Part shown: positions 14,895 through 59,598 of the stretch, in pieces | Layout: each line of letters opens with the position of its first letter | Position numbering within the stretch: the first letter of the stretch is position 1 | Position numbers and translations under genes: made by a program | The notes under the pieces: generated by a model | The model's database searches: none | The model's input: only the letters and a program-made list of their open reading frames with translations | What the model was told of the DNA's origin: nothing | NCBI RefSeq assembly: GCF_900109655.1 | Contig: NZ_FOAT01000005.1 | Span: 1 to 64,000 of the forward strand | Source of the DNA: Ruminococcus albus | GTDB taxonomy: Bacteria; Bacillota; Clostridia; Oscillospirales; Ruminococcaceae | DNA: 64,000 bases | Direction: 5' to 3'

Positions 14895-16197
14895 ATGAAA
14901 ATGAACAAGAAAATACTATCAATGGTTCTGGCACTTAGTTTAACACTGGGCTAAGCTGCCACGCTCACGCAGGGTGTGTTCACCGATAATGCCTTCGTAA
15001 CTGCTTCAGCTGATGAATCGTATGGACTGTTCGACTATTATGTAAGCAAAGAGTATGGATATGCAATGGTGACAGGATATAGAGGCACAGCCGAAAATGT
15101 CACGATACCCGATAAACTTGGCGGCTATGCTGTACAGTTCATCGGAGAAAAGGCGTTCTACAAAAATGAGAATATTGTCACAGTTAAAATTCCAAGCACT
15201 GTAACTACCATAAAGTATGGTACATTTGCATACTGCAAAAATCTGAAAAAGCTTGACAATCTCAAGAACTGCAGCCGTCTGTGCTTTATCGAAGGGTCCG
15301 CATTCTATGAGTGCGGCAATCTTCAGATGAAGAAAAGTGATTTCCCTTCATCCCTTTATAAAATAGATAGTTTTGCTTTTTACAACTGCCAGAAGCTTGA
15401 AGGCATTGATCTGAGCAACGCCCAGACCATTCAAGGCTCTGCTTTTGATGGCTGTGAATCGCTGTCTTCTATTGAAGCTCCCAAGACAACGGATTACGGT
15501 GCATCAGTTTTCAAAGACTGTAAAAATCTGCAAAACATAACTCTTTCAAAGGATATAAAAACTTTGACAAACAGAATGTTTCAGGGTTGCAGCATGCTTA
15601 AATTTCTATCCCGAATTCAGTAACATCCATTGGCAACTATTGTTTTGAAAACTGTGAAAGCTTCTCACCTATCATAGTCCCTGCGGGTGTTACATACATA
15701 GGAGATTATGCTCTCGGTTGTAAGTATTACAAAACAAGTCAAACTACGAGATATCATTTTACAGTTGATGCTATTTACTGCTATGATATAAACAAGGCAG
15801 TTACTGAGGAATATGTCAAACTGGGCGGAAAGTATCAACTCTTACCTGTTATAGTTATCGACTGCAACCACACCTATGAAGATCATATTTCAAAGAAGGC
15901 GACCTGCACCGAGAAAGGCGAAGTAACACATACCTGTTCAAAGTGCCTTGATAAATATACCACTGAGATACCTGTCCTTGGTCACGACTGGGGTGCATGG
16001 ACAGTAGTCACACCCGCGACCAAAGAGAAAAACGGAACTGAAAAACACACCTGCAGCAGATGCAGCAAGGAGGAAACAAGGTCTGTGGCTTATGCAGGTA
16101 ATGAATATCTGCTTGGTGACGGCAAGATAAACAATACTGACGTCACAAAGGCGGCGGCTCATGTAAAGGGCAAGAATCTTTTGACAAGCAAAAAATA
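14895..16197 (+). pseudogene. Disrupted BspA-type LRR surface protein with C-terminal Cys-rich repeats and a single dockerin-like Ca-binding segment (in-frame TAA in the signal peptide; frameshift near 15600-15625)
   Basis: MKMNKKILSMVLALSLTLG then TAA at 14952-14954, then the same frame continues with LRR units; the frame changes near 15620 and the reading continues to ...[25 protein letters not shown] (dockerin-like loop). Confidence 0.6.
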
Positions 16198-45949: not shown

Positions 45950-46106
45950 CGTGAATGACCTCCGAACCGAAATAATTTATTCATAAATATTATAGTATGA
46001 TTCAGGGGGAATGTCAATAGAAATTGCAAATGTCCGCAATAATTATCATCAAAAAACCGACAGGACACAAGCCCTGCCGGTTTCGAATGTTTGTTTTGGT
46101 TGATGA

Positions 46107-46937
46107 TTATTTGTTGTTTAGAGTTCCGGTTGTTTTATAGAAATAAGTGTAAATACTGAAAGACCTGTCTTCGAGATTTCTTGTATCCCACTTACCGTTG
46201 ACTTTAGCTACAATGACAACCTTGTTTGTAGTGGCCGGTCTCAAGTTCTTGGGTGTGGTGTAACTTGTTACATTAGCAGGTATACTCTGTGTCTGAATTC
46301 TCCACTTGCCTGCCAGATATACTGCTACGCCGTACTGTTCTGCACCTTCTACGGCTGTCCAGTTCAAACGTATCTGACGATAAACAGAATTAGTTTGTGT
46401 CGCATTCAACACAGGATATTCAGTTTTGTCCTTAGCATCAATTACCTTAATATTGATACCATTTGCAAGTGCATATTTCTCAGCCTTAGAACCATTATAG
46501 CATTTTATTACAAGAGATGGATTACGATATACAAAAGAACTGCTACCTATATCTGTCAAATTTGCAGATAATTTAACCTCAACAAGATTCGAGCAATGTG
46601 CGAAAACTTCCCGATCCATTGTAGTTATACTATCAGGCATAGAGACACTTACAATACTCGTATTATAATGAAACGCAGCATAGCCAATACTTGTTACAGC
46701 CACACCATCTACCTCGGCTGGTATCTCAACTTTTGTATTTTTACCTTCATAGCTTCTTATCTCAGCAGTACCATCTTCAAGCAAAGTGTACTTAAAGTCG
46801 CCGTATGTGAGTACTTCCTTTTCAGCTGCACTAGCTGAGATAACTGCGTTGCTGTTTACTACTGTGTTGGGCAGAGCTGCGCCACCAAATGCGAATGTCA
46901 GTGCCAGCAGACCTGCTACGATCTTTTTGTTGTTCAT
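46107..46937 (-). CDS. Secreted BspA-type LRR protein, paralog A of the array (signal peptide, LRR, C-terminal Fn3-like domain)
   Basis: MNNKKIVAGLLALTFAFGGAALPNTVVN signal; LRR units; C-terminal ...YGVAVYLAGKWRIQTQ...KVNGKWDT. Confidence 0.8.
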   Translation of the reverse strand: MNNKKIVAGLLALTFAFGGAALPNTVVNSNAVISASAAEKEVLTYGDFKYTLLEDGTAEIRSYEGKNTKVEIPAEVDGVAVTSIGYAAFHYNTSIVSVSMPDSITTMDREVFAHCSNLVEVKLSANLTDIGSSSFVYRNPSLVIKCYNGSKAEKYALANGINIKVIDAKDKTEYPVLNATQTNSVYRQIRLNWTAVEGAEQYGVAVYLAGKWRIQTQSIPANVTSYTTPKNLRPATTNKVVIVAKVNGKWDTRNLEDRSFSIYTYFYKTTGTLNNK

Positions 46938-47099
46938 TTTATGAACCTCCTAATAAAAAAATTTATTTAAACGACATGAACCCGACTCGAATAATCTCTT
47001 ATCCCGACTTTAACGATCACTTATCCCAAATATGGGTGCAGTACTTTGGTTGCACTGACCATGTTTGTATAAGTTCATTAATCATGTCGTTCAATGTTA

Positions 47100-47128
47100 A
47101 TTATATTACTTTTTAAATTATTTGTCAA
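47100..47128 (-). promoter_or_regulatory. Consensus promoter TTGACA-17-TATAAT for paralog A
   Basis: Minus-strand reading: TTGACA aataatttaaaaagtaa TATAAT. Confidence 0.7.
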
Positions 47129-47522
47129 CAGTGTTTTTGAACATTAACTATCATTAATGATAAACTCTATCCTGTAGATATCAGTAATTTCGCATTAGCT
47201 GTTGAACTTTGTGAATATGGCTGTATCTCGCTTACTGATATCATTTCGCTGCTGTTTACTGCTTTATCCAGCTATGCTTTACTTCTAGTGCGGATCAAAC
47301 ACTGGCAGTCATGATATGGTTTTAATATTCATTATTTGTTATTTTCAAGTTTAAATTAATCTATAATTATTTTAACATATTTGTTATTAAAAGTCAATGG
47401 ATCCCCCCATGTATCATTCACAATAGCCGATTGATATTTTGATATACCCCATCAGCTTTATGAATGTCGGGAAGATCCATTCGACATTAAGTATTAATTA
47501 TTATGTTTTATAAGTATCAGCA

Positions 47523-48815
47523 TTACTTAACAGTAACAGTAAATGCTCTGCCGCTGATATTGCTGGTATCCCATTCGCCGTCGATCTTAGCGCATATAAC
47601 CATGTTGTACTTAGATTTAGCTTTCAGCTTGGGCGAAGTGAATGTAGTGTTCTCTGCCTCAGTGTAAGCCTGTACCTTCCACTTGCCGGCCAGTCTTACT
47701 GCAATACCGTACTTCTCAGCACCATCAACAGCTGACCACTTTATGCGGAATTGGTGGAACTCCTCGTTGTAGTCGATCTTTGTTACTTCGGGGTAATAGT
47801 TTACAAATCTGTACATCAAGCCGTTTTCTTCTGCATAACCCTGTGCATAGGATCTCTTATAGCAGTAGATAGTAAGGTTTCTTAAAGGTTCGATCTCATT
47901 TTCGATCCTGTTTCTGTAAGCGAAAGCCATCTCGCCTATTTCAGTAACGTTATCGGTAATATACAGATTCTTAAGCTTTGTGCAGCCGAAGAAAGCGCCC
48001 TCTCCTATTGTCTGTAACCTATCAGGCAGATATAAAGTCTCAAGACTTGTGCAATTAACAAATACCTCGTTGCCGATACTTTCCAGCGAATCAGGCAATA
48101 TCACAGTATTAAGGTTCTTACAACCCTCAAAAGTGCATGCTTCGATCGTAGTAACGCCATCAGGTATTGTTATACTTTTCAGGCTCTTGCAATCTTTGAA
48201 TGCAGAATCACCGATCATCTCGACGCTCTTGGGCAGATCTATGGTTTCCAGATTATTGCAGCCCTCAAAAGCAGAGAATTCAATAGAACGTACATTACCG
48301 CCAAACTCTACATCAACTAAACTTTCGCAGTTCAAAAATGTCCTGTAATCGATGTTTGTGACTTTTTCGGGTATATAGATGCACTTCAGGGATTTGCATC
48401 CGCTGAAAGCAGCTCTGCCGATCTTTTTAACAGTCATAGGAAGGTATATATTTTCAAACTTGCTGTTTGAAAATGCATTATCTGCGATATTGGTAACACC
48501 GTCTGGTATGCTTACTGATCCGGCATTAACATCTGAAAAAGCACCCTCACCAATACTTGATACCGTATAGCCATCGATCTCATCGGGTATATAGATCTCC
48601 ACGTCAGGACCATAGCAATCAGCGATGTAATCTGTTATCTCAACTGTATTGTTTTCAAGATAAATATACTCAAAATTATCGAATACATATACCTCGTATC
48701 CGCCTGCGCTAGCTGAGATCACTCCGTTGTTGTTTCCTTTTGTGTTGGGCAGAGCTGCACCGCCGAATACAAATGACAGCGCCAGCAGACCTGCTACGAT
48801 TTTCTTGTTGTTCAT
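47523..48815 (-). CDS. Secreted BspA-type LRR protein, paralog B
   Basis: Same signal peptide; about 10 BspA-like 23-aa LRR units (IPD.VT.IG..AF..C..L..I.LP); same C-terminal domain. Confidence 0.8.
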   Translation of the reverse strand: MNNKKIVAGLLALSFVFGGAALPNTKGNNNGVISASAGGYEVYVFDNFEYIYLENNTVEITDYIADCYGPDVEIYIPDEIDGYTVSSIGEGAFSDVNAGSVSIPDGVTNIADNAFSNSKFENIYLPMTVKKIGRAAFSGCKSLKCIYIPEKVTNIDYRTFLNCESLVDVEFGGNVRSIEFSAFEGCNNLETIDLPKSVEMIGDSAFKDCKSLKSITIPDGVTTIEACTFEGCKNLNTVILPDSLESIGNEVFVNCTSLETLYLPDRLQTIGEGAFFGCTKLKNLYITDNVTEIGEMAFAYRNRIENEIEPLRNLTIYCYKRSYAQGYAEENGLMYRFVNYYPEVTKIDYNEEFHQFRIKWSAVDGAEKYGIAVRLAGKWKVQAYTEAENTTFTSPKLKAKSKYNMVICAKIDGEWDTSNISGRAFTVTVK

Positions 48816-48949
48816 CTTTTTGTCCTCCTAAATTTGTTATATAATTAACAAGCGACATCTCACCTTCACACAGCCCGAATGAAGGTACTGTTGCTTTTTC
48901 GGCACTGACCAACTCGGGTTAATACGAAAGATCATGTCGCTTGATAGTT

Positions 48950-48978
48950 ATTATATACCTTTTTTGGTATTCTGTCAA
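48950..48978 (-). promoter_or_regulatory. Consensus promoter TTGACA-17-TATAAT for paralog B
   Basis: Minus-strand reading: TTGACA gaataccaaaaaaggta TATAAT. Confidence 0.7.
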
Positions 48979-49101
48979 TAGTCAGTTTTTACATTATATG
49001 ACAGTAAGGGTAATCGCTCTGTTGTTGAGAGCGGAAGTATCCCACTTGCCGTTATATCGCACTTTAGATTTACTAAAATGCCGTATTTACATTCCTGTAT
49101 A

Positions 49102-50490
49102 TCACTTAACGGTAACAGTTACAGCGTCAAAGAGAGCATCCCTTACATTCCACTCACCGTTCACCCTAGCAGCAACTGCGACCTTATAGGTCTTCCCGGG
49201 TGTAAGGTTCTTGGGAGATGTGAAAACAGTAACATCGGCAGGGATAGAACAAGTCCAAACTCGCCACTTTCCTGAAAGATATACAGCGATGCCGTACTTT
49301 TCAGCATTATCATAAGGCTTCCATCTTAAACGTATCTGGTGATACTCTTCGCTGAGTTCAGCTTTGATGACCATCCTCTTCGGAGGGGGACAATTAGGGA
49401 GTTTTTCATCGATCAGCTTATAATTCAAGCCCTTTTCTTTTGCATATTTTTCAGCGTATGAACCGCTGTAGCAATTGATAGTCACGTTCTTTAATGGCTT
49501 ATAGCTATCATCGTGTGTATCATATTCTGAAAATGCATCCTCACCTATTTCGGTTACACTTGCGGGAATTGTAATGCTTTTAAGGTTATGGCATTCCAAA
49601 AATGCAGCTCCTCCTATGGTTTTTACACTATCAGGTATTACTACATTTTCCAAGCTTTCGCAGCTTTCAAATGCCGCATCATCGATAGATTCAACACTAT
49701 CCGGTATAACAATGCTCTCAAGGCTTTCGCAAAGCATAAAAGCTCCAATATCTATCTGCTTTAATCCTTCCGGTAATGTTATACTTTTAAGGTTTGTACA
49801 GGATAAAAAAGCAAATTCACCAATATATTCCACACTATCGGGTATATCAATGGTTTCAAGATTATCCAACCCTACAAAAGCATATTCTACAATTGACTTC
49901 GTACCATCAGGTATAACAATGCTCTTAATTTTACTACAGCCCGAAAAAACATTATGCATATATTTAAGATTTTTAGATAATGTTACATTTTCAAGGCTTA
50001 CACAATCGTAAAATGCATGATCTTTGATTTCCGTAACACTATCGGGTATATCAATGCTATTTAATAATTCACATCCAAAAAATGCATTACTACCTATACA
50101 CTTCAAATTTTTAGATAATGTAATGCTTTCAAGGTATCTACAATATGCAAATGCCCCTTCTTTGATTTCCGTAACACTATCAGGTATAACAACACTTTTA
50201 ACATACACAAAATAATTGCAATCAAAAGCATCTTCACCAATGCTTGTTACAACTGCGCCATTTATCTCGCCCGGTATCTTAACCTCGTCAGCTGAAAAAT
50301 GACCCTCTACTATCTCAGCAGTACCATCTTCACGCAGAATATACTTATAATCACCGTATGTAAGTACCTCTGCATCCTCTTCACTTGCCGAAGCTACCAC
50401 GCTGTTGTTAACTACTGTGTTTGGCAGAGCTGTGCCACCGAATACAAATGACAGTGCCAGCAGACCTGCTACGATCTTTTTGTTGTTCAT
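49102..50490 (-). CDS. Secreted BspA-type LRR protein, paralog C
   Basis: Same signal peptide, LRR units, same C-terminal domain. Confidence 0.8.
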   Translation of the reverse strand: MNNKKIVAGLLALSFVFGGTALPNTVVNNSVVASASEEDAEVLTYGDYKYILREDGTAEIVEGHFSADEVKIPGEINGAVVTSIGEDAFDCNYFVYVKSVVIPDSVTEIKEGAFAYCRYLESITLSKNLKCIGSNAFFGCELLNSIDIPDSVTEIKDHAFYDCVSLENVTLSKNLKYMHNVFSGCSKIKSIVIPDGTKSIVEYAFVGLDNLETIDIPDSVEYIGEFAFLSCTNLKSITLPEGLKQIDIGAFMLCESLESIVIPDSVESIDDAAFESCESLENVVIPDSVKTIGGAAFLECHNLKSITIPASVTEIGEDAFSEYDTHDDSYKPLKNVTINCYSGSYAEKYAKEKGLNYKLIDEKLPNCPPPKRMVIKAELSEEYHQIRLRWKPYDNAEKYGIAVYLSGKWRVWTCSIPADVTVFTSPKNLTPGKTYKVAVAARVNGEWNVRDALFDAVTVTVK

Positions 50491-50657
50491 TTTTGTGTCC
50501 TCCTAATATTCAATATTTATTAAACGACATGAACCCGACTTTAATGATCACTTATCCTGACTGTGGGTACAGTGCTTTTTCGGCACTTACCGTGTCGGGA
50601 TAAGTATGAATAGTCACGTCGCTTATTGCAAATTATTGATCAACAGTATATTTGATA

Positions 50658-53108
50658 TTACCTTACAGTAAGTGTAAACGCTCTGTTGTTGATAGCAGAA
50701 GTATCCCACTTGCCGTTTACCTTAGCACAGATAACAACCTGATAACTCTGACCTGAGATCAGCTTGGGTGATGTGTAGTCAGTTGTACCGCCATCGATAT
50801 AAGCCTGTACCTTCCACTTGCCAGCAAGCTTTACGGCTATACCGTACTGCTGTGCACCTTCTACTGCTGTCCAGTTCAGACGGAACTGACGGTATTTTGA
50901 ACTGTATTCTTCCTTTATCAGCTCGGGATATTTTGTTTTGCTGTCACCGGCATCGATCACATTGAAGTTGTTGCCGTTTTTCAGAGCATACTTATGTGCA
51001 GCTGAATCCTTGCAGCAATTAATTACCAGATCTTTTAATGGCTTGTAAGAATCATCTTCACTTTCATCGGTATAATACGATTCCGAAAAAGCATCGTCAC
51101 CTATTTTGGTAACACTTGCGGGAATTGAAATGCTTTTAATAGCAAAGCAGTTTCCAAAGGCATATGCCCCTATTTCTTCCGTTCCTTCAGGCAAAGTTAT
51201 ACTTTCAAGTTCCTGACAGTTTGCAAAAGCGGAAGCCCCTATTTTCTTCAAGCCTTTCGGTAATTCGATGCTTTTGAGGCTACAAAAACAAAATGCCCCT
51301 AAACCGATACTTTCAACACTATCAGGTATAACTACATTCTCAAGACTAGAAGCAATAAAAGTATAATCACATATCTGCTTCAAGCCTTTCGGTAAAGTTA
51401 TACTTTTAAGACTGTTACAATCCTCAAATGCCCATTCACCTATATATTCAACACTATCGGGAATAACAATGCTCTCCAAACTATTGCACATATTAAAAGC
51501 TCCCGCCCCAATTGTCTTCACACCATCAGGGATAACAATGCTCTTAATTTCTCCACAAAATGAAAAAGCATTTTCACCAATGCTAGTTACAGCCACGCCA
51601 TTGATCTCAGCGGGCACCTCGATCTCTGTTTCAGAACTGTTGTAATATGTTATCTCAGCAGTACCGTCTTCAAGCAGCTTGTACTCATAATCGCCGTATG
51701 TGTTTTTATAGCGAACGTAGGTGTTCTTGCCGTCGTTTTCTATCTCAGCATATGTGCGGTGACCACTTACATCAGTATATGGTTCATTAACGTTTGCCCA
51801 GCCTAAATCATTAGAAAGTCTGGCTTCAAAATTTATACTCTTGAAATTCTCGCCGAGTGCAAAGGTGGTCAGATTATAACAACCCTTAAACATCTCTTCC
51901 ATATTTGTAACATTGCTTGTGTCGAATCTGCTCATATCGAGTGAGGTCAGTGCCATACAATCACTGAACATATGGTGCATATATATAACGCTGCTTGTAT
52001 CAAATCCACTTACATCAAGTTCGGTAAGGTTTTCACACTTATTGAACATATAGATAAGATTTGTAACTTTGCTTGTATCAAATCGGCTTACATCAAGTTT
52101 GGTCAGTTTTTTACACCTATTGAACATAAGACCCATATATTTTACCTTGCTTGTATCGAATCCGCTTACGTCAAGTTCGGTCAGGTTTTCACACAAGCTG
52201 AACATAAACGAAAGATCTGTAGCCTTGCTTGTATCAAATCCGCTTACATCAAGTTGGGTCAGAGATTTACAAGAACTGAACATACCACTCATATCCACAG
52301 CATTGCTTGTATCGAATCCGCTTACATCAAGTTTGGTAAGTTTGTAACACCCACTGAACATATCGTTCAGTTTTGTTGCTTTTCTTGTATCAAATCTGCT
52401 TACATCAAGTTCGGTCAGAGATCTGCAAGAATTGAACATACCGCACATATATTCAGCGCTGCTTGTATCAAATCCGCTTACATCAAGTTTTGTCAGAGCG
52501 AAACAATCCCAGAACATTTGGTGGATATCTGTAACCTTGCTTGTATCAAATTTGCTTACATCAAGTTCGGTCAGTTTTTCACAACCATAGAACATATTAT
52601 TCATATCTGTAACATTGCTTGTATCAAACCTGCTTACATCAACTTTGGTCAGTTCATAACAACAATAGAACATCTTGTTCATATCTGTGACATTGCTTGT
52701 ATCGAATCCGCTTAGATCAACTTCGGTCAGAGATCTGCAATAACTGAACATATCGCTCATATTTGTAACATTGCTGGTATCTGCCTTTGAAAGATCAATA
52801 GAAGTACACCGGAAATTATGAAACAGTGACTTGCAATTTTCCGGTAAAACAGTTCCCTCTTCGGCTATAATGGTTCGTACGTAAGGTGCTTTTGATCCGC
52901 TGAATCTATATAATTTTTTACCATCTACCTTGCCCCTGAGCGTAAGCACACCTGTTTCCGCCTCATAAGAATAACAATCTCCCTCAAGGTCAGCAGCCTG
53001 CGCTGTTATTACCGATACTACGCTGTTTACTACTGTGTTGGGCAGAGCTGTGCCGCCAAATACGAATGTCAGAGCCAGCAGACCTGCTACGATCTTTTTG
53101 TTGTTCAT
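50658..53108 (-). CDS. Secreted surface protein, paralog D, with about 14 DUF285-type 26-aa repeats plus LRR units and the C-terminal Fn3-like domain
   Basis: Repeats of the type DVS.FDTS.VT.M..MF..C..LT.L; same signal peptide and C-terminus. Confidence 0.8.
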   Translation of the reverse strand: MNNKKIVAGLLALTFVFGGTALPNTVVNSVVSVITAQAADLEGDCYSYEAETGVLTLRGKVDGKKLYRFSGSKAPYVRTIIAEEGTVLPENCKSLFHNFRCTSIDLSKADTSNVTNMSDMFSYCRSLTEVDLSGFDTSNVTDMNKMFYCCYELTKVDVSRFDTSNVTDMNNMFYGCEKLTELDVSKFDTSKVTDIHQMFWDCFALTKLDVSGFDTSSAEYMCGMFNSCRSLTELDVSRFDTRKATKLNDMFSGCYKLTKLDVSGFDTSNAVDMSGMFSSCKSLTQLDVSGFDTSKATDLSFMFSLCENLTELDVSGFDTSKVKYMGLMFNRCKKLTKLDVSRFDTSKVTNLIYMFNKCENLTELDVSGFDTSSVIYMHHMFSDCMALTSLDMSRFDTSNVTNMEEMFKGCYNLTTFALGENFKSINFEARLSNDLGWANVNEPYTDVSGHRTYAEIENDGKNTYVRYKNTYGDYEYKLLEDGTAEITYYNSSETEIEVPAEINGVAVTSIGENAFSFCGEIKSIVIPDGVKTIGAGAFNMCNSLESIVIPDSVEYIGEWAFEDCNSLKSITLPKGLKQICDYTFIASSLENVVIPDSVESIGLGAFCFCSLKSIELPKGLKKIGASAFANCQELESITLPEGTEEIGAYAFGNCFAIKSISIPASVTKIGDDAFSESYYTDESEDDSYKPLKDLVINCCKDSAAHKYALKNGNNFNVIDAGDSKTKYPELIKEEYSSKYRQFRLNWTAVEGAQQYGIAVKLAGKWKVQAYIDGGTTDYTSPKLISGQSYQVVICAKVNGKWDTSAINNRAFTLTVR

Positions 53109-53235
53109 TTTTGTGTCCTCCTAAATTTGTTATATAATTAACAAACGACATCTCACTTTCGCCCATTCCGACCGAATGCGCTGTTTTTGCGGCACTGATC
53201 GGATCAAACGCGAAAGATCATGTCGTTTGATAGTA

Positions 53236-53264
53236 ATTATATATCTTTTTTTACTTTGTGTCAA
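53236..53264 (-). promoter_or_regulatory. Consensus promoter TTGACA-17-TATAAT for paralog D
   Basis: Minus-strand reading: TTGACA caaagtaaaaaaagata TATAAT, then 7 nt, then AAACGACAUGA as the predicted transcript 5' end. Confidence 0.7.
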
Positions 53265-53390
53265 TTGACAGTTTTAACATTTTATGACAATATCTGTAAA
53301 TACTCTGCTGTTGATATATGACTATTCCCATTGGCCGCTATATCACACGTGAGATTTACTGAAATGCCGTATTTACGTTACTGTATATCA

Positions 53391-54413
53391 CTACTTAACG
53401 GTAACGGTTACAGCATTCTTGATCGGGTCAGTAGTATTCCACTTACCGTTCACCCTAGCAGCAACTGCGACCTTATAGGTCCTGCCTGGTGTAAGATTCT
53501 TTGGTGTAGTGAATGTTGTGGTCGTAGCCGGGATAGAACTGGTCCACACTCTCCACTTTCCCGAAAGATATACAGCGATGCCGTACTTTTCAGCACCACC
53601 AATAGGATCCCAGCTGAAACGTATCTGATGATACTCCGCACTGCATTCAGCTCTTAACATATTAGTAGGGGGACAATTAGGGAGTTTTTCATCGATCAGC
53701 TTATAATTCAAGCTGTTTGCTTTTGCATATTTCTCGGCAGCTGAGTTTGCGTAGCAATTGATAATCACGTTCTTTAATGGCTTATAGCTATCATCGTGTG
53801 TATCATATTCTGAAAATGCCTCTTCACCTATCTCGGTAACACTAGCGGGAATAGTAACATTATTAAGATCTGTACAGTATCCGAAAGCAGCTTCACCTAT
53901 ATACTTCAGGTTTTGGGGCAGAACAATGTTTTTGAGGTTCGTGCAGCTGTTGAATGTTCCCACCTCAATGCGTTCCACACCATCAGGTATGACCACATTG
54001 TCAAGTGCAACACACTCCGCAAAATTGGTCTCACCTATAGACTTCAGATTTTTTGAAAATTTGATACTTTTAAGATTAAAGCAGCTGGTAAATGCATATC
54101 CCTTGATAGTAGTTACGCTATCAGGCATAATGACGCCGGTGATATCGAAATTGCCTTCAAATGCTGACTCACCAATACTAGTTACTGCCACGCCGTCTAT
54201 CTTATCGGGTATCGTGACCTCTGTATCTTCGCCCCTGTATCTTGCGATCTCAGCTGTACCGTCTTCCAGAAGCCTGTACTCATAGTCATCAAATGCAATT
54301 GTTTCTGCACTTGCTGAAATAACCGTGCTGTTGTTTGCTGCACCGGGCAGGAATGTACCACCGAATACGAATGTCAGCGCCAGCAGACCTGCTACCATCT
54401 TTTTGTTGTTCAT
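53391..54413 (-). CDS. Secreted BspA-type LRR protein, paralog E
   Basis: Same signal peptide (MNNKKMVAGLLALTFVFGG), LRR units, same C-terminal domain. Confidence 0.8.
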   Translation of the reverse strand: MNNKKMVAGLLALTFVFGGTFLPGAANNSTVISASAETIAFDDYEYRLLEDGTAEIARYRGEDTEVTIPDKIDGVAVTSIGESAFEGNFDITGVIMPDSVTTIKGYAFTSCFNLKSIKFSKNLKSIGETNFAECVALDNVVIPDGVERIEVGTFNSCTNLKNIVLPQNLKYIGEAAFGYCTDLNNVTIPASVTEIGEEAFSEYDTHDDSYKPLKNVIINCYANSAAEKYAKANSLNYKLIDEKLPNCPPTNMLRAECSAEYHQIRFSWDPIGGAEKYGIAVYLSGKWRVWTSSIPATTTTFTTPKNLTPGRTYKVAVAARVNGKWNTTDPIKNAVTVTVK

Positions 54414-54550
54414 TTCATTACCTCCGTATCATTTTAATAGATATAACAAACGACATAAAATATCCGCTTGTTCCGAACGCAGGTGATATGCTTTTCCGGC
54501 ACGAACCGCAGCATCGGGATAAGTGTGAAATAATATGTCGTTTGATAATT

Positions 54551-54579
54551 ATTATATATCTTTTTTAACGATATGTCAA
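54551..54579 (-). promoter_or_regulatory. Consensus promoter TTGACA-17-TATAAT for paralog E
   Basis: Minus-strand reading: TTGACA tatcgttaaaaaagata TATAAT. Confidence 0.7.
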
Positions 54580-54594
54580 CAGGCTGTTACAATA

Positions 54595-56166
54595 TTACTT
54601 TACAGTAACTGTGATAGCGTTCTTGATAGCGTTTGACGTATCCCAAGTGCCGTCTACCTTGGCCGCGATAGCTACCTTGTAGGACTTGCCCGGAGTAAGA
54701 TTTTTAGGTGTGGTATAACTTACAGTTGAAGCGGGGATCTTCTGGGTCTGGATCCTCCACTTGCCTGCAAGATATACAGCTATGCCGTACTGCTGTGCGT
54801 TCTCCACCTTGTCCCATGAAAATCTTATCTGGTGATATTCTTCGCTGTAATCGACCTTGATGTTTGTGGGATATGTGGGTTTAGCTGCATCCAACAGCTC
54901 AAATGTCAGTTTGTTTGTTACTGCATATTTATGCGCTGCTGAGTTAGTGTAGCAATATACAGTAACTTTACTTGCAGGACTAGCTGTCTGAGTAAGAGAA
55001 TTAGAATCGGTGATTATATTATCCCCTATTTCAGCAACACTTGCGGGTATAGTTATGGTTTCAAGACCGCTGCAACCTGCAAAAGCACCTGTTTCGATAC
55101 TCGCAACGCCATCAGGTATAACAACAGTTTTAATAAGCAAACAATTGTCAAAAGCATTTTGGCTGATAGTTTTCAGACCTTTCGGCAATGAGATGCCGGC
55201 AAGTTTGCCGCAGTCCTCAAAAGCACTTGCGCCGATAGTTTCAAGCTTTGTGGGGAATGTAACGCTCTCAAGAGCTTCACATTCTGCAAATGCTTTATCA
55301 TTGATAATTTCTACGCCATATGGAAGAGCGATACTTTTGAGCTTTTTACACTTTTCAAAAGTACTTTCTTCAACAGACGTTATGTATTTGGATAAAGTGA
55401 TGCTTTCAAGTGCGTAGCAGTTAGAAAATGCATATTTACCAATAGCTGTAACGGTGTTGGGTACAGTTACCTTATTGAGACTTTCACAGAAAGCAAAAGC
55501 AGATTTTCCTATAGACTCCAGGTTTTTGGATAACGTTACACTTTCAAGCTCTGAACAGTATACGAAAGCAGAATCTCCGATAGATGTAACAGTGTCGGGT
55601 ACCACGATCTCTTTCAGCAAACTGCATCTGACAAATGTTGAATCCTTTATAGATTCTAATTTATTTGATAAAGTTACGCTTTCAAGTGTAGAACAATCCA
55701 TGAAAACTGCAGTGCCCATGGAAACTACGCTATCGGGTATAACAATATTTGTCAGAGCTTTGCATCCGCCAAACACTACACTGCCAATTGAAGTAACACT
55801 GCCGGGTATCACAACATCTGTCAGAGAAGAACACTGATTAAACGCTGCATCACCAATGGAAACCACACCTTCAGGTATTACAATGCTTTCGATTTTAGAA
55901 AAACCGCTGAAAGCGCCGGATCTTATTTTGGTAACACTTAATTCATCTAACTCGCTTGGGATCTCGACATCAGCATCAGAACCGGCGTACCTTACGATCT
56001 CCGCAGTACCATCTGAAAGCGTATTATAAATATAATCACCGGATTTAATTGAAGCTGCACTTGCTGTAACAGCAGAGATGCTATTTACTGCGCTGATCGG
56101 AACGAGTGCACCGCCGAAAACAAGTGTCAGTGCCAACAGACCAGAAATGATCTTCTTATTATTCAT
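54595..56166 (-). CDS. Secreted BspA-type LRR protein, paralog F (about 14 LRR units)
   Basis: Signal MNNKKIISGLLALTLVFGG; LRR units; C-terminal Fn3-like domain. Confidence 0.8.
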   Translation of the reverse strand: MNNKKIISGLLALTLVFGGALVPISAVNSISAVTASAASIKSGDYIYNTLSDGTAEIVRYAGSDADVEIPSELDELSVTKIRSGAFSGFSKIESIVIPEGVVSIGDAAFNQCSSLTDVVIPGSVTSIGSVVFGGCKALTNIVIPDSVVSMGTAVFMDCSTLESVTLSNKLESIKDSTFVRCSLLKEIVVPDTVTSIGDSAFVYCSELESVTLSKNLESIGKSAFAFCESLNKVTVPNTVTAIGKYAFSNCYALESITLSKYITSVEESTFEKCKKLKSIALPYGVEIINDKAFAECEALESVTFPTKLETIGASAFEDCGKLAGISLPKGLKTISQNAFDNCLLIKTVVIPDGVASIETGAFAGCSGLETITIPASVAEIGDNIITDSNSLTQTASPASKVTVYCYTNSAAHKYAVTNKLTFELLDAAKPTYPTNIKVDYSEEYHQIRFSWDKVENAQQYGIAVYLAGKWRIQTQKIPASTVSYTTPKNLTPGKSYKVAIAAKVDGTWDTSNAIKNAITVTVK

Positions 56167-56240
56167 CTTTTAACCCCCTGTTATTTTGACCATTTATTTA
56201 ACCCGTACACCGGCAGGACATCTCCTGCCGTTTGATGTAT

Positions 56241-56269
56241 ATTATACAACAGTTTTTAGTTTTTGTCAA
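56241..56269 (-). promoter_or_regulatory. Consensus promoter TTGACA-17-TATAAT for paralog F; the leader begins with a different 5' hairpin (GGCAGGAGAUGUCCUGCC)
   Basis: Minus-strand reading: TTGACA aaaactaaaaactgttg TATAAT. Confidence 0.7.
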
Positions 56270-56381
56270 CATATTATATCAATATCATCAAAATTGTCAA
56301 AAACAGCGCCCGATTAACTCAGGCGCTGTTAGCATCATGTCAGATTTAAATCCTACAGTGATGACTGATACTTTACTGATA

Positions 56382-58319
56382 TTACTTTACAGTAACATTC
56401 ACAGCATTCTTGATAGCGTCTGAGGTATACCATTTGCCGTCAACTTTTGCTGCGATCGCTACCTTGTAGGTCTTGCCGGGAGTAAGGTGCTTAGGAGTTG
56501 TGTAGGTTGTGTCAGTGATATCCTGTGTCTGGACTCTCCATTTGCCTGCGAGATATACTGCGATACCGTATCTGTCAGCGTTTTCTATCTTATTCCATGT
56601 AAATCTTATCTGATGGAACTTTTCGCTGTATTCGGTCTTGATGCTTGTGGGTGCGTTTTTAAAATAACGAATGTAGGTGTTTATGCCATTGTTTTCGATA
56701 ACTACAAATAATCCGTTATCACTTGGAATAATGGTTGAGGGTGAATCAGCATTTACCCAACCGTCGCCTTCAGGAAGCCCGGCGCCAATATTTATGTATT
56801 TGAAATTCTCTCCAAGAGTAATTTTTTTCAGATTATTACAGTGATCGAACATACTATACATCTCTGAGTATATTCCATCCACCTTTATTAACTTGCTTGT
56901 GTCAAAGCTGCTAAGATCAAGCGAGGTCAGATTTTTACAATCACAGAACATACTATGCATATCTGTAACTTTGCTTGTATCAAAGTTGCTGATATCAAGT
57001 GAGGTCAGATTTACACAATTTTCGAACATTTCACTCATATCTGTTACACTGCTTGTATCAAAGACACTCAAATCGAGTGAGGTAAGTTCACAGCCACGGA
57101 ACATTCCCTTCATATCTGTCACGTTACTTGTATCAAAACTGCTAAGATCAAGAGAGGTCAAACCTGAAAAATCGCCGAACATGTGACCCATATCTGTGAC
57201 CTTGCTTGTATCAAAGCAACTAAGATCAAGAGAGGTCAAATGACAACCTAAGAACAATCCATACATTTTTGTGACATTGCTGGTGTCAAATCCACTCAGA
57301 TCAATAGATGTCAGATTATCACAAAGAGCGAATAAAAGTGAAATATTTGTAACTTTACTGGTATCAAAGCCACTAATATCAAGAGAGGTCAGTTTTTCAC
57401 AACAACGGAACATTCCAGTCATATCTGTAACGTTACCGGTATCAAAGCCACTGACATCAAGTCCAGTCAGATTTTCGCAGCCATCGAACAAATAACTCAT
57501 ATCTGTAACATTGCTTGTATCAAAGCCACTAACATCAAGTGCAGTCAGATTTTTACAATATTGGAACATACCACCAATATCTGTAACTTTGCTTGTATCA
57601 AAGCCGCTGACATCAAGTGCAGTCAGATTATCACAGTTATCGAACATTCCGCTCATACCTGTAACTTTGCTTGTATCAAAACCGCTAACATCAAGTGCAG
57701 TCAGATTATCACAGTTAGCGAACATTCCGCTCATACCTGTAACTTTGCTTGTATCAAAACCGCTAACATCAAGTGCAGTCAGATTATCACAGTTAGCGAA
57801 CATTCCGCTCATACCTGTAACTTTGCTTGTATCAAAACCGCTAACATCAAGTGCAGTCAGATTATCACAGTTAGCGAACATTCCACTCATATCTGTAACA
57901 TTGCTTGTATCAAAGCCACTAACATCAAGTGAGGTCAGTTCTCTACAAAAGAAGAACATTCCACTCATATTTGTAACATTGCTTGTATCAGCCTTTGAAA
58001 GATCGATACTCGTACACGAATAATATTCACTAAATAGTTTGCTACAGTCTTCAGGCAAAACTGTTCCTTCTTCGGCTATAATGGATTTTAGCATAGGTCT
58101 ATAATTAGCACTGAATTCCTTTAATGCATCAGCGTCGATCTGTCCCCTGAGTGTAAGCACACGTGTACCCAGATCAAATGAATAACAGTCCGCCTCCATA
58201 GTAACAGTTTGCCCTGTTATGACCGTTTCTGCGCTGCTTACCACTGTGTTTGGCAGAGCTGTGCCGCCGAATACTAATGTCAGCGCCATCAGACCTGCTA
58301 CGATTTTTTTGTTGTTCAT
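56382..58319 (-). CDS. Secreted surface protein, paralog G, with about 14 DUF285-type 26-aa repeats and the C-terminal Fn3-like domain
   Basis: Same signal peptide; repeats DVSGFDTSKVTGMSGMFANCDNLTAL; same C-terminus. Confidence 0.8.
   Translation of the reverse strand: MNNKKIVAGLMALTLVFGGTALPNTVVSSAETVITGQTVTMEADCYSFDLGTRVLTLRGQIDADALKEFSANYRPMLKSIIAEEGTVLPEDCSKLFSEYYSCTSIDLSKADTSNVTNMSGMFFFCRELTSLDVSGFDTSNVTDMSGMFANCDNLTALDVSGFDTSKVTGMSGMFANCDNLTALDVSGFDTSKVTGMSGMFANCDNLTALDVSGFDTSKVTGMSGMFDNCDNLTALDVSGFDTSKVTDIGGMFQYCKNLTALDVSGFDTSNVTDMSYLFDGCENLTGLDVSGFDTGNVTDMTGMFRCCEKLTSLDISGFDTSKVTNISLLFALCDNLTSIDLSGFDTSNVTKMYGLFLGCHLTSLDLSCFDTSKVTDMGHMFGDFSGLTSLDLSSFDTSNVTDMKGMFRGCELTSLDLSVFDTSSVTDMSEMFENCVNLTSLDISNFDTSKVTDMHSMFCDCKNLTSLDLSSFDTSKLIKVDGIYSEMYSMFDHCNNLKKITLGENFKYINIGAGLPEGDGWVNADSPSTIIPSDNGLFVVIENNGINTYIRYFKNAPTSIKTEYSEKFHQIRFTWNKIENADRYGIAVYLAGKWRVQTQDITDTTYTTPKHLTPGKTYKVAIAAKVDGKWYTSDAIKNAVNVTVK
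57574..57886 (-). repeat. Perfect 78-bp in-frame tandem repeats (three identical copies plus diverged flanking copies) within paralog G
   Basis: The identical 78-nt unit recurs at 57652, 57730 and 57808; each encodes the 26-aa unit DVSGFDTSKVTGMSGMFANCDNLTAL. Confidence 0.85.
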
Positions 58320-58479
58320 AATTATGAACCCTCCTATATAAAAAACAATTTAACGACATGGACCCGACTAAAAAATTTTTATCCCGACAATAAAAATTAC
58401 TTATCCCTGCCACTTGTGCTGTGCTTGGCTACACTGACAAGATCGGGATAAATATAATAGCACATGTCGTCTATGGTTA

Positions 58480-58508
58480 ATTATATTATATTTTTAACTG
58501 TTTGTCAA
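58480..58508 (-). promoter_or_regulatory. Consensus promoter TTGACA-17-TATAAT for paralog G
   Basis: Minus-strand reading: TTGACA aacagttaaaaatataa TATAAT. Confidence 0.7.
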
Positions 58509-58593
58509 TAGGTGTTCTGCAAAATAAAGAATTATTCTTTTTAGATATTTTTTGCGCGCTACCGTCAATTGCATTTATAGGTGATATATGCTC

Positions 58594-58623
58594 TTGACAT
58601 ATAAAAAAATATATTGTATAATA
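58594..58623 (+). promoter_or_regulatory. Promoter TTGACA-17-TATAAT for the LysR gene
   Basis: ttgaca tataaaaaaatatattg tataat. Confidence 0.6.
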
Positions 58624-58665
58624 TACATGACAATATGTACTTTTCGATATAACGGAGGGATAACA

Positions 58666-59598
58666 ATGAATTTGACGCATCTTCGGTACATTGTGGAAGT
58701 CGAGCGGCTGGGATCGATAACCAAGGCTGCGGCGGCGCTTTATATGGGTCAGCCCAACCTTTCAAAGGCTATAAAAGAAATGGAACACGAAGTCGGGATA
58801 CCGATATTCAAGAGGTCGGCAAAGGGCGTAGTGCCCACGGACAAGGGCAAGGAGTTTTTGCAGTACGCTAAAGCCATACTCGTTCAGCTTGACAAGATGG
58901 AAAATCTTTACAAGGACAATGTCAGCAACAGGGTGAGCTTTTCTCTGCTTCTGCCACGTGCAAGTTACATCACTCACGCTTTCACCTGTTTTCTGAACAG
59001 GGTATCTGACAGGCAGGCGATGGACATCAAGATAAAGGAAACCAACTCGATGGAGGCTATAAACTCGGTGGTGGAGTGCGAATACGATATGGGCATAATC
59101 CGCTATCCCATCGCATACGAGAGCTTTTTTCTGCCGCTGCTTGAAGAGAAAAATCTCACGATACACAACAGCTGGGAATACGACTATGTGCTGATAATGA
59201 GTGCGGACAGCCCTCTTGCGCAGGAGACTGAGATAACCGAGGAGACCCTTGAAAAGTACATCGAGATACTTCACGGCGACAATACCGTGCCGAATATATC
59301 GGCGGTATATCAGAAGAAAAATGCAGACCTCAATCCTCACAGGCGGCATATATATGTTTACGAAAGGGGCAGTCAGTTTGATATACTGTCGGATTGTCCC
59401 GAATCGTATATGTGGGTATCGCCCATGCCCCGGGAGATACTCGACCGCTGCAAGCTGGTTCAGCGCAGCACGCCGAATATCCGCAAGACCAACAAGGACG
59501 TGCTGATATATCAGTCCAGCTATCGTCTGAGCGCGACGGACAATATGTTTGTGGACGAGCTGGAGAAAGTTCGCAGAGAGATAAGTGTATCGGAATGA
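58666..59598 (+). CDS. LysR-family transcriptional regulator
   Basis: N-terminal HTH LTHLRYIVEVERLGSITKAAAALYMGQPNLSKAIKEMEHEVG; start at the ATG following RBS aacggaggg. Confidence 0.85.
   Translation: MNLTHLRYIVEVERLGSITKAAAALYMGQPNLSKAIKEMEHEVGIPIFKRSAKGVVPTDKGKEFLQYAKAILVQLDKMENLYKDNVSNRVSFSLLLPRASYITHAFTCFLNRVSDRQAMDIKIKETNSMEAINSVVECEYDMGIIRYPIAYESFFLPLLEEKNLTIHNSWEYDYVLIMSADSPLAQETEITEETLEKYIEILHGDNTVPNISAVYQKKNADLNPHRRHIYVYERGSQFDILSDCPESYMWVSPMPREILDRCKLVQRSTPNIRKTNKDVLIYQSSYRLSATDNMFVDELEKVRREISVSE

What the first reader, a model, noticed from the sequence alone, without database searches (positions are those of the whole stretch)
46970..58478. Conserved 5'-terminal leader stem (AAACGACAUGA ... 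about 85 nt ... UCAUGUCGUUU) in six of the seven paralog mRNAs
Seven nucleotides downstream of each consensus -10, the predicted transcript starts with AAACGACAUGA. This pairs with CAUGUCGUU about 30 nt upstream of the AGGAGG RBS (46970-47101, 48850-48946, 50523-50628, 53140-53234, 54448-54548, 58350-58478), so the stem encloses the whole 5' UTR, with nested inner stems. Paralog F instead starts with a different 5' hairpin (GGCAGGAGAUGUCCUGCC). In paralog C the stem arms are conserved but about 12 nt including the -10 box appear to be deleted, which may make it silent or weakly expressed. A 5'-terminal stem of this kind could stabilise the mRNA (as in ompA), act as an RNase III or riboregulator target, or at the DNA level serve as inverted-repeat half sites for a common regulator.
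Basis: seen in the sequence. Interest (0 to 1): 0.65.

Follow-up and report, generated by a model that had tools for sequence, protein, structure and literature searches.

The report
Transposon-derived hairpin in paralog leaders
The conserved stem at the start of six Ruminococcus albus surface-protein mRNAs is real, but its two arms are the terminal inverted repeats of a small mobile DNA element (a MITE) that landed in an ancestral 5' leader and was copied along with the gene, so it is a new example of a known phenomenon, not a new kind of RNA regulator.

Summary
Six of seven tandem minus-strand paralogs (secreted LRR/DUF285 proteins whose C-terminal domain I assign to CBM37 from the literature) carry AA(A/G)CGACAU...AUGUCG(U/C)UU enclosing a 90-130 nt nested hairpin. 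It starts 0-4 nt after the predicted start site of perfect TTGACA-17-TATAAT promoters. Paralog F carries a truncated version of the same stem.

The pairing is conserved in two other R. albus strains: 92% of cells are paired against 33-44% in slid controls, nine pairs show double changes, and G·U exceeds A·C by 26 to 9 on the sense strand.

The arms are the inverted ends of a roughly 95-99 nt palindromic element family with ends TAGTAAACGACAT. At least 19 free copies occur in rumen and gut DNA with unrelated flanks, in both orientations, in 5' and 3' UTRs. They are flanked by TA (18/19 left, 15/19 right). One copy interrupts a phage DUF739 gene, and removing 99 nt plus one TA restores it. A model built only from the leaders finds these copies end to end.

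Best reading: an IS630/Tc1-like MITE fixed in an ancestral leader and spread by tandem gene duplication. It probably still forms a 5'-terminal mRNA hairpin, plausibly a stabiliser or RNase III target, but this is untested. No Rfam family matches and no parent transposase was found.

The parts
46966..47095 (-). Leader element of paralog A. Outer stem (P1) arms lie at about 47083-47093 (5' arm) and 46969-46979 (3' arm). Nested stems P2 and P3, plus two extra GUCGGGAU repeats in the 3' half.
   Evidence: CM hit of 93.8 bits. MFE -40.7, z -4.4. Core span 46972-47089.
48847..48945 (-). Leader element of paralog B. P1 is AAGCGACAU/AUGUCGCUU, with a compensated G-C pair.
   Evidence: CM hit of 87.6 bits. 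MFE z -4.2. Core span. Pair table.
50519..50627 (-). Leader element of paralog C. P1 has two G·U pairs. There is no -10 box upstream, because about 12-17 nt are deleted.
   Evidence: CM hit of 112.3 bits. Alignment gap. No promoter called.
53140..53231 (-). Leader element of paralog D, a compact rod-like hairpin.
   Evidence: CM hit of 73.4 bits. MFE -41.7, z -5.9.
54445..54546 (-). Leader element of paralog E. Of the window's leaders this type is the closest to free copy L148. Its P2 carries A·C mismatches on the sense strand.
   Evidence: CM hit of 84.7 bits. Alignment with L148, in which the AR67 E-type leader scores highest. The antisense strand folds better.
58348..58475 (-). Leader element of paralog G, with extra GUCGGGAU repeats.
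   Evidence: CM hit of 90 bits. MFE z -4.0. Core span.
56211..56234 (-). Paralog F truncated element: CAAACGGCAGGAGAUGUCCUGCCG, the base of P1 with the interior lost.
   Evidence: Sequence. The ortholog in L001 reads AAACGACAGGAGAUGUCCUGUCG, a compensated change. Hairpin listed.
47100..47128 (-). Promoter of A (TTGACA-17-TATAAT, 12/12).
48950..48978 (-). Promoter of B (12/12).
53236..53264 (-). Promoter of D (12/12).
54551..54579 (-). Promoter of E (12/12).
56241..56269 (-). Promoter of F (12/12). A second perfect promoter lies at 56273-56300.
58480..58508 (-). Promoter of G (12/12).
46107..58319 (-). Seven tandem paralog genes: A 46107-46937, B 47523-48815, C 49102-50490, D 50658-53108, E 53391-54413, F 54595-56166, G 56382-58319. 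They encode secreted BspA-type LRR / DUF285 proteins with a shared signal peptide (MNNKKIVAGLLAL) and a shared C-terminal domain of about 92 aa that I take to be CBM37.
   Evidence: ORFs. Pfam PF13306/PF03382. The C-terminal domain is expanded in R. albus genomes. CBM37-LRR proteins are described in PMC4300822; the CBM37 assignment here is inferred, not scored against a CBM37 profile.

Best explanation
[quoted passage not shown] Free copies are about 95-99 nt long, end in TAGTAAACGACAT...ATGTCGTTTACTA, fold as a rod-like hairpin, and insert at T-TA-A sites with duplication of TA. That is the signature of IS630/Tc1-mariner-type transposition.

One copy inserted between the -10 box and the ribosome-binding site of the ancestor of this LRR surface-protein gene (C-terminal domain inferred to be CBM37). 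It then spread within the cluster by tandem gene duplication, not by transposition. The outer 4 nt of the repeat and the TA flanks have decayed, so the copies are probably immobile.

Because the promoter fires 0-4 nt upstream of the left repeat, each mRNA begins with a long hairpin that leaves the Shine-Dalgarno sequence free. The stems are kept by compensatory and G·U changes, and two independent internal deletions still leave a 5' hairpin. I therefore infer that the RNA hairpin is now under selection. The most likely role is as a 5'-end protector against 5'-dependent decay (RNase J/RNase Y), giving stable, highly expressed messages from consensus promoters. Where a gene is read through from upstream (C, and L001 12977), it may act as a processing or stability determinant.

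Shown: the structure, its conservation, homology to the mobile family, and the mobility signatures of that family. Inferred: the transcription start, the identity of the transposase family, and any effect on mRNA stability (about 0.4 on its own).
For: 1. Homology to a mobile family. A covariance model built only from the six window leaders matches free copies end to end. L148 and L230 score 43 bits (E about 1e-6), and L004, L130, L147, L162, L174 and others score 30-38 bits. L148 aligns colinearly with the E-type leaders, including ACTTATCCCGAC and CTGCGGTC.
2. Mobility of that family. 19 non-redundant copies have unrelated flanks. TA lies on the left in 18/19 and on the right in 15/19, with T at -3 and A at +3. 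The element sequence of L004 is repeated exactly at a different site in L174. Copies lie 3' of a GH5 gene (L004), in inverted orientation in the 5' UTR of another GH5 gene (L073), and 3' of amtB-glnK (L015). In phage contig L084 the element splits a DUF739 gene. Deleting 99 nt plus one TA gives a protein that matches PF05339 colinearly (positions 3-68 of 69, 93.2 bits), against 85.8 bits for the alternative excision.
3. RNA-level constraint in the leaders. 92.2% of cells are paired against 33-44% when partners are slid. Nine pairs changed on both sides (1 of 500 shuffles reaches this), and the covariation score is reached by 0 of 500. G·U exceeds A·C by 35 to 10 in 12 leaders and by 26 to 9 in 11 representatives, or 16 to 6 counted by columns. 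Stems are 68-90% identical pairwise, against 38-57% for junctions and loops.
4. Truncated derivatives keep a hairpin at the 5' end: F with a compensated change between strains, and the L007 paralog with AACGACAUGGUCGUU.
5. With the start site taken as the 7th nt after the -10 box, 0-4 nt are unpaired before the stem, and the Shine-Dalgarno sequence has an unpaired probability of 0.53-0.86.
6. Bacterial MITEs with TA duplication, long RNA hairpins, and effects through RNase III or on mRNA stability are established (Correia/NEMIS, RUP/IS630-Spn1, ERIC; PMC2229807).
Against: - No autonomous element with these inverted repeats was found in the DNA held, so the IS630 assignment rests on the TA duplication alone.
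- The window leaders do not retain clean TA flanks or the outer TAGT of the repeat, so their insertion is inferred from homology, not seen directly. No empty site for the leader was found.
- The strand test is not phylogenetically corrected. Transcription-coupled C-to-T bias could add G·U pairs. The alignment was fitted to the model. Whole-leader sense versus antisense MFE differs only weakly (mean -36.1 vs -31.6, Wilcoxon p = 0.12), and E-type leaders fold better antisense.
- Gene conversion among paralogs could help keep the arms alike.
- The start site, mRNA half-life and any RNase cleavage are untested.
Confidence: 0.78

Rival explanations
1. Neutral relic. The hairpin is only a decaying MITE carried along by recent gene duplication and homogenised by gene conversion, with no role in expression.
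For: The MITE origin is shown. E-type leaders accumulate A·C mismatches and fold better antisense. The interior is lost in F and in the L007 paralog. The promoter, ribosome-binding site and signal-peptide DNA of the paralogs are also very alike, as expected under gene conversion.
Against: There is an excess of double (compensatory) changes and of paired cells over shuffles and slid controls. G·U exceeds A·C about 3 to 1. Stems are more conserved than loops and junctions. Spacers next to the 3' arm differ between leader types, so conversion tracts alone do not explain the conservation of the arms. Both truncated forms still form a hairpin at the 5' end.
Confidence: 0.3
2. Correia-like processing element. 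The long imperfect duplex is cleaved by RNase III (or another endonuclease). This sets the level of each paralog mRNA and separates read-through transcripts, rather than simply protecting the 5' end.
For: The rod-like duplexes are about 30-45 bp long. Leaders without their own promoter lie inside probable polycistronic RNA (C; L001 12977). There is precedent in Neisseria NEMIS/Correia elements and in ERIC (PMC2229807).
Against: No cleavage data exist. The duplexes are interrupted by many bulges. F and the L007 paralog keep only 6-8 bp, too short for canonical RNase III, yet still sit at the 5' end.
Confidence: 0.2
3. Dedicated cis-regulatory RNA (a riboswitch or a protein-binding leader) specific to this gene family and unrelated to mobile DNA.
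For: The nested structure is conserved with covariation. Repeated GUCGGGAU motifs in A, C and G could pair alternatively with CUUAUCCCGAC.
Against: Homologous copies occur at unrelated genes, in both orientations, in 3' UTRs and inside a phage gene. No Rfam family matches, even at E up to 10. No conserved unpaired ligand-pocket-like core is present, and loops and junctions are the least conserved parts. No terminator is present and the Shine-Dalgarno sequence is not sequestered.
Confidence: 0.06
4. DNA-level operator. The two arms are half-sites for a common transcription factor, for example the divergently encoded LysR-type regulator at 58588-59598.
For: A LysR-family gene lies next to the cluster. 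The left arm in B and D reads ATCAAACGACATGAT, which fits the LysR ATC-N9-GAT/T-N11-A pattern (the LysR pattern is from my own knowledge).
Against: The arms are 68-106 bp apart with variable spacing and lie downstream of the start site. The LysR-like dyad is absent from A, C, E and G. The G·U/A·C asymmetry is a single-strand property. The same arms occur at unrelated loci in other genomes and in a phage.
Confidence: 0.05

Closest known systems
RUP (repeat unit of pneumococcus), a 107-bp MITE of Streptococcus pneumoniae attributed to IS630-Spn1
   Same: A Firmicute host, a size of about 100 bp, short terminal inverted repeats, insertion at TA with TA at both ends, mostly intergenic location, and a transcript that folds into a long stem-loop (PMC2229807).
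   Different: The sequence is unrelated as far as I can tell. For RUP a parent IS with matching repeats is known, and none was found here. RUP has about 100 copies per genome, whereas this family looks low-copy (2 in about 250 kb of R. albus 8 loci). RUP is not known as a conserved leader of a paralog family.
Correia / NEMIS elements of Neisseria
   Same: MITEs with TA duplication that are co-transcribed with neighbouring genes and form long hairpins. Those hairpins are reported to act on mRNA through RNase III, and the elements sit close to promoters (PMC2229807).
   Different: A different phylum and a different sequence. Correia repeats are 24-26 bp, and some carry IHF sites and promoter elements. 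Here the promoter lies outside the element and no cleavage is shown.
5'-terminal stabiliser stem-loops (E. coli ompA leader; B. subtilis aprE and ermC leaders)
   Same: A hairpin predicted to begin within 0-4 nt of the 5' end, with a free ribosome-binding site downstream. This is the geometry known to block 5'-end-dependent decay (established knowledge, not tested here).
   Different: Those are short single hairpins with no transposon ancestry. Here the start site and half-life are unmeasured, and the hairpin is 90-130 nt long.
ERIC/IRU repeats of enterobacteria
   Same: Palindromic intergenic repeats, co-transcribed with flanking genes, that alter the stability of flanking mRNA segments (PMC2229807).
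   Different: A different sequence, a different host, and 7-bp repeats. The reported effects are mainly on upstream transcripts.

Membership tests
Bacterial MITE (non-autonomous element with terminal inverted repeats) | Small size (under about 300 bp) with no coding capacity | tested here: met
   Free copies are 95-99 nt and leaders are 92-130 nt. They are hairpin-forming with no ORF.
Bacterial MITE (non-autonomous element with terminal inverted repeats) | Terminal inverted repeats shared by family members | tested here: met
   The 13-nt repeat TAGTAAACGACAT / ATGTCGTTTACTA is present in free copies. Its inner 9-11 nt are kept in all window leaders.
Bacterial MITE (non-autonomous element with terminal inverted repeats) | Multiple copies at unrelated sites, in either orientation | tested here: met
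   19 non-redundant copies have different flanks. L004 and L073 are in opposite orientation relative to GH5 genes. The same element sequence sits at two different sites (L004/L176 versus L174).
Bacterial MITE (non-autonomous element with terminal inverted repeats) | Target-site duplication; filled versus empty site | tested here: met
   TA flanks are present in 18/19 (left) and 15/19 (right) free copies. Virtual excision of 99 nt plus TA restores a colinear DUF739 ORF in L084. For the window leaders themselves this is inconclusive: the flanks have decayed and no empty site was found.
IS630/Tc1-mariner-derived MITE (like RUP) | 2-bp TA duplication at an NTAN-type target | tested here: met
   The target is approximately T-TA-A.
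IS630/Tc1-mariner-derived MITE (like RUP) | Repeats matching those of a resident IS630-family element that encodes a DDE transposase | tested here: inconclusive
   No repeat pair 0.4-3 kb apart that encloses a transposase ORF was found in about 2 Mb of fetched loci. Whole genomes could not be scanned.
Rfam cis-regulatory RNA / riboswitch families | Score at or above the gathering threshold of any covariance model | tested here: not met
   The window gave no hit at the gathering threshold, and no relevant hit at E up to 10 over 46800-58700. Free copies give only sub-threshold matches to eukaryotic miRNA-precursor hairpins.
5'-terminal mRNA stabiliser stem-loop | Hairpin within about 0-4 nt of the true 5' end | tested here: inconclusive
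   Met for a start site assumed at the 7th nt after the perfect -10 boxes. The start site is not mapped.
5'-terminal mRNA stabiliser stem-loop | Longer mRNA half-life that depends on the stem | not testable with these tools
   This needs decay measurements with stem mutants.
LysR-type operator | A T-N11-A / ATC-N9-GAT dyad conserved at all regulated promoters, upstream of or overlapping -35 | tested here: not met
   The dyad is present only in B and D, and there it lies downstream of the -10 box.
Intrinsic terminator / attenuator | A G+C-rich stem immediately followed by a U run | tested here: not met
   No terminator-like site was called at any leader on the sense strand.

The most novel reading that the evidence does not exclude
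The MITE hairpin has been domesticated as a shared post-transcriptional control element for the whole LRR surface-protein cluster (C-terminal domain inferred to be CBM37). The invariant CGAC/GUCG core of the closing stem, unchanged in all 20 leaders from three strains while the rest covaries, would be recognised sequence-specifically by a factor such as an RNase, an RNA-binding regulator or a transposase-derived protein. That factor would co-ordinate the expression, processing or phase of the paralogs. The duplicated GUCGGGAU units in A, C and G would offer alternative pairings.
Probability: 0.15. Interest if true: 0.6.

Novelty: new member of a known kind. Interest (0 to 1): 0.35.

Why it matters
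It reassigns what looked like a private riboregulator to a class that is already understood. A transposon's inverted repeats can become the conserved 5' end of a whole family of highly promoted surface-protein mRNAs in a major rumen fibre degrader.

It also defines a MITE family that appears undescribed. The family is found in Ruminococcus and one phage contig, has ends TAGTAAACGACAT, and duplicates TA at insertion. It could be used as a host-phage linkage marker and as a strain-typing polymorphism.

If the hairpin does stabilise the messages, it is a compact, portable cassette (consensus promoter, 5' hairpin, strong ribosome-binding site) for expression in Clostridia. It would also be a clean natural case for studying how a MITE is co-opted.

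Tried and rejected
- **Rfam.** The whole window at the gathering threshold, and 46800-58700 at E up to 10, gave nothing relevant. Free copies gave only weak matches to miRNA precursors.
- **Viral scan** for AAACGACAT-N60-90-ATGTCGTTT. It returned 43 hits, about the chance level by my own rough estimate. Only L084 folds as a rod-like hairpin and is a real copy.
- **Metagenome scan.** Most rows belong to an unrelated-looking AT-rich repeat of 103 or 85 nt with the same 10-nt ends, in contigs with (TG)n microsatellites and no transposase ORF, probably eukaryotic. A second family carries GATG|TAAACGACAT...|CATC. Neither was used as evidence.
- **Search for a parent IS.** I looked for repeat pairs 0.4-3 kb apart and at the lone half-copy at L020 17162. 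No transposase was found.
- **Sense versus antisense MFE as a strand test.** The trend is not significant (p = 0.12), so it was replaced by G·U versus A·C counts.
- **LysR box in the left arm.** It fits only B and D.
- **Terminator or attenuator reading.** No U tract follows the stem.
- **An 11-nt repeat model.** Under this model, excision from L084 either shifts the frame or adds two residues and scores lower. The 13-nt repeat plus TA was kept.
- **The C-terminal domain as a guide to more leaders.** Across 76 loci (1.2 Mb), leaders occur only in the orthologous cluster.

Full report
**Context.** The window comes from a Ruminococcus albus strain. Paralog E is identical to NCBI protein SEK73709.1, and the cluster is syntenic with R. 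albus AR67 locus L001. Positions 46107-58319 on the minus strand hold seven tandem genes for secreted proteins. They share a signal peptide (MNNKKIVAGLLAL...), contain BspA-type LRR (PF13306) and/or DUF285 (PF03382) repeats, and end in a common C-terminal domain of about 92 aa. That domain is greatly expanded in R. albus genomes, with 237 tblastn-confirmed sites. I take it to be the CBM37 module, because many R. albus 7 CBM37 proteins without a catalytic domain carry LRRs (PMC4300822). I did not score it against a CBM37 profile. A LysR-family gene (58588-59598) is transcribed divergently from paralog G.

**Observation.** The core CGACRT...ATGTCG occurs at A, B, C, D, E and G only. That gives 7+4 strand-matches against 0.28+0.12 expected from shuffles. 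Each leader folds into a nested hairpin closed by this stem, with MFE z-scores of -3.3 to -5.9. Perfect 12/12 TTGACA-17-TATAAT promoters end 6-8 nt before the left arm of A, B, D, E, F and G, and C has none.

Paralog F is not a different hairpin. It is the base of the same stem (AAACG...CG) with the interior missing. In AR67 it reads AAACGACAGGA...UCCUGUCG, so the two strains differ by a compensated pair. A further paralog elsewhere in AR67 (L007 8723) has AACGACAUGGUCGUU, another internal deletion that leaves a mini-hairpin.

**Conservation of the structure.** A covariance model built from the six leaders finds nothing else in the window. In 1.2 Mb of R. albus-group loci chosen by the C-terminal domain, it finds only the orthologous cluster of AR67 (seven copies) and one weak hit in R. 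albus 8. A third strain (L240) has eight copies.
- On 12 leaders, 92.2% of pair cells are standard pairs, against 33-44% when partners are slid.
- Nine pairs changed on both sides (1 of 500 shuffles reaches this), and the covariation score exceeds all 500 shuffles.
- On the sense strand, G·U pairs outnumber A·C mismatches by 35 to 10.
- In 11 non-redundant representatives the count is 26 to 9, or 16 to 6 by columns.
- Stems are 68-90% identical pairwise, while junctions and loops are 38-57%.

These results favour pairing in the sense RNA. The caveats are shared ancestry, an alignment fitted to the model, possible transcription-coupled mutation bias, a non-significant whole-leader sense versus antisense energy difference (p = 0.12), and E-type leaders that fold better antisense.

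**What the arms are.** The weak hit in R. albus 8 (L004 5110-5207) lies downstream of a GH5 cellulase gene, before its terminator. A second copy (L073 5055-5149) lies in the 5' UTR of another GH5 gene in the opposite orientation. Both have longer repeats, TAGTAAACGACAT/ATGTCGTTTACTA, and a different, fully self-complementary interior. AR67 has a variant downstream of amtB-glnK in which both arms changed together, to TAGTTAACAACAT.

A scan of viral contigs gave one real copy, L084 1706-1804, inside the Cro-like DUF739 gene of a prophage-type immunity region. Deleting 99 nt plus one TA restores an ORF that matches PF05339 colinearly (positions 3-68 of 69, 93.2 bits). The alternative excision adds two residues and scores 85.8 bits.

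A metagenome scan added about 18 rod-like copies from rumen and gut samples. Across 19 non-redundant copies the flanks are unrelated except for TA, which is present on the left in 18/19 and on the right in 15/19, within a T-TA-A preference. The element sequence of L004 recurs exactly at a different site in L174. Neighbouring genes are diverse, including metabolic genes, phage and methylase genes, and serine recombinases.

The leader-derived model matches these copies over its full length, best at L148 and L230 (43 bits, E about 1e-6). L148 aligns colinearly with the E-type leaders, interior included. The leader is therefore a member or derivative of a MITE family. Its 2-bp TA duplication is the signature of IS630/Tc1-mariner-type transposition, as for RUP in pneumococcus and Correia elements in Neisseria (PMC2229807). 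No parent transposase was found in the DNA available.

**How it most likely works.** This part is inferred. One insertion between the -10 box and the ribosome-binding site of the ancestral gene was copied with each tandem duplication. All copies sit in the same place and orientation relative to the promoter and ribosome-binding site. The outer repeat bases and the TA flanks have decayed, so the copies are probably immobile. The cluster is dynamic in other ways too: gene number differs between strains, and fragments of the shared C-terminal coding end lie in intergenic DNA.

If the start site is taken as the 7th nt after the -10 box, 0-4 nt precede the stem, and the Shine-Dalgarno sequence stays mostly unpaired. 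This is the geometry of known 5'-terminal stabilisers, such as ompA in E. coli and aprE and ermC in B. subtilis (established knowledge). Together with consensus promoters and strong ribosome-binding sites, it suggests a high-expression cassette.

Leaders without their own promoter keep the stem. These are C, whose -10 deletion is shared by two AR67 leaders, and L001 12977, which has no promoter at all. No terminator separates C from D. In read-through transcripts the hairpin would therefore be internal and could act as a processing site or stability barrier, as reported for Correia and ERIC. I put the MITE origin at about 0.8-0.85 and any specific function at about 0.4. A neutral relic remains a serious rival.

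**Rejected readings.**
- Riboswitch or dedicated leader RNA: there is no Rfam match, loops are the least conserved parts, the Shine-Dalgarno sequence is not sequestered, and free copies occur in unrelated contexts.
- Operator half-sites: the spacing is variable at 68-106 bp, the arms lie downstream of the start site, a LysR-like dyad is present in only two of six, and the strand asymmetry argues against it.
- Terminator or attenuator: no U tract follows the stem.

**Novelty.** MITEs in bacterial UTRs that form long RNA hairpins are well known, and large surveys list MITEs shared between Ruminococcus and its viruses (PMC11602168). I found no description of this family or of its role as the conserved leader of this R. 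albus gene cluster. I file it as a new member of a known kind, of moderate interest.

Noticed in passing
window 45989-58622: Nine perfect 12/12 TTGACA-16/17-TATAAT promoters lie in 12.8 kb: two before F, one each before A, B, D, E and G, one before the acyltransferase gene (46017-45989), and one for the LysR gene (58594-58622, inside the longest ORF call, so the real LysR start is probably the downstream Met). The total number of promoter-like sites is no higher than in shuffles, but the number of perfect ones is striking.
   Followed up: partly
window 48990-49060 (-) and 53265-53390 (-): The intergenic DNA upstream of the B and D promoters contains remnants of the shared C-terminal coding end (...YNGKWDTSALNNRAITLTVI*, and a more decayed copy). 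These are scars of deleted or recombined paralogs.
   Followed up: partly
window 46938-47522: The unusually long A-B spacer (585 nt) holds a hairpin, AAUGUCGaauggaucuucCCGACAUU (47463-47488), just after the B stop codon. It uses the same hexamers as the leader stem but in the reverse order. A further promoter-like site with a TG extension lies at 47397-47369, followed by about 250 nt with no ORF.
   Followed up: no
window 46979-47008, 50532-50539, 58381-58388 (minus-strand leaders A, C, G): The 3' halves of leaders A, C and G carry one or two extra copies of GUCGGGAU(AAG). This duplicates the 3' arm of the inner stem, so CUUAUCCCGAC has two or three possible partners. B, D and E and the free copies lack these repeats.
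   Followed up: partly
L120-L239 (for example L131, L189, L193, L198): Most metagenome hits belong to an AT-rich repeat of 103 or 85 nt with the same 10-nt ends (TAAACGACAT). It often appears as several copies of TTAAACGACATAAT within about 200 bp, in contigs with (TG)n microsatellites and no long ORFs, probably eukaryotic. A third family has GATG|TAAACGACAT...ATGTCGTTTA|CATC (L133, L159, L177, L182, L192, L205). Whether the shared ends reflect a common transposase superfamily is unknown.
   Followed up: partly
L167 4758-4849 and L230 504-595: Two different subtypes of the element lie immediately upstream of near-identical large serine recombinase genes (MAKQTIYNAGIYVRLSQEDMRAGESLS...).
   Followed up: no
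L218 4224-4320 and 6184-6281: Two copies of the element, about 90% identical, flank a two-gene segment. One copy sits directly upstream of a ribosome-binding site, another 5'-UTR insertion.
   Followed up: no
L020 17160-17205 (R. albus 8): A solitary half-copy (CAGTAAACGACATAAATTTCAGAAC) sits inside a short inverted repeat (CGGCAGATG...CATCTGCCG), with no right-hand partner.
   Followed up: partly
window 14976-15623 (+): Another BspA-type LRR ORF lies outside the cluster. The leader model finds no element near it.
   Followed up: partly
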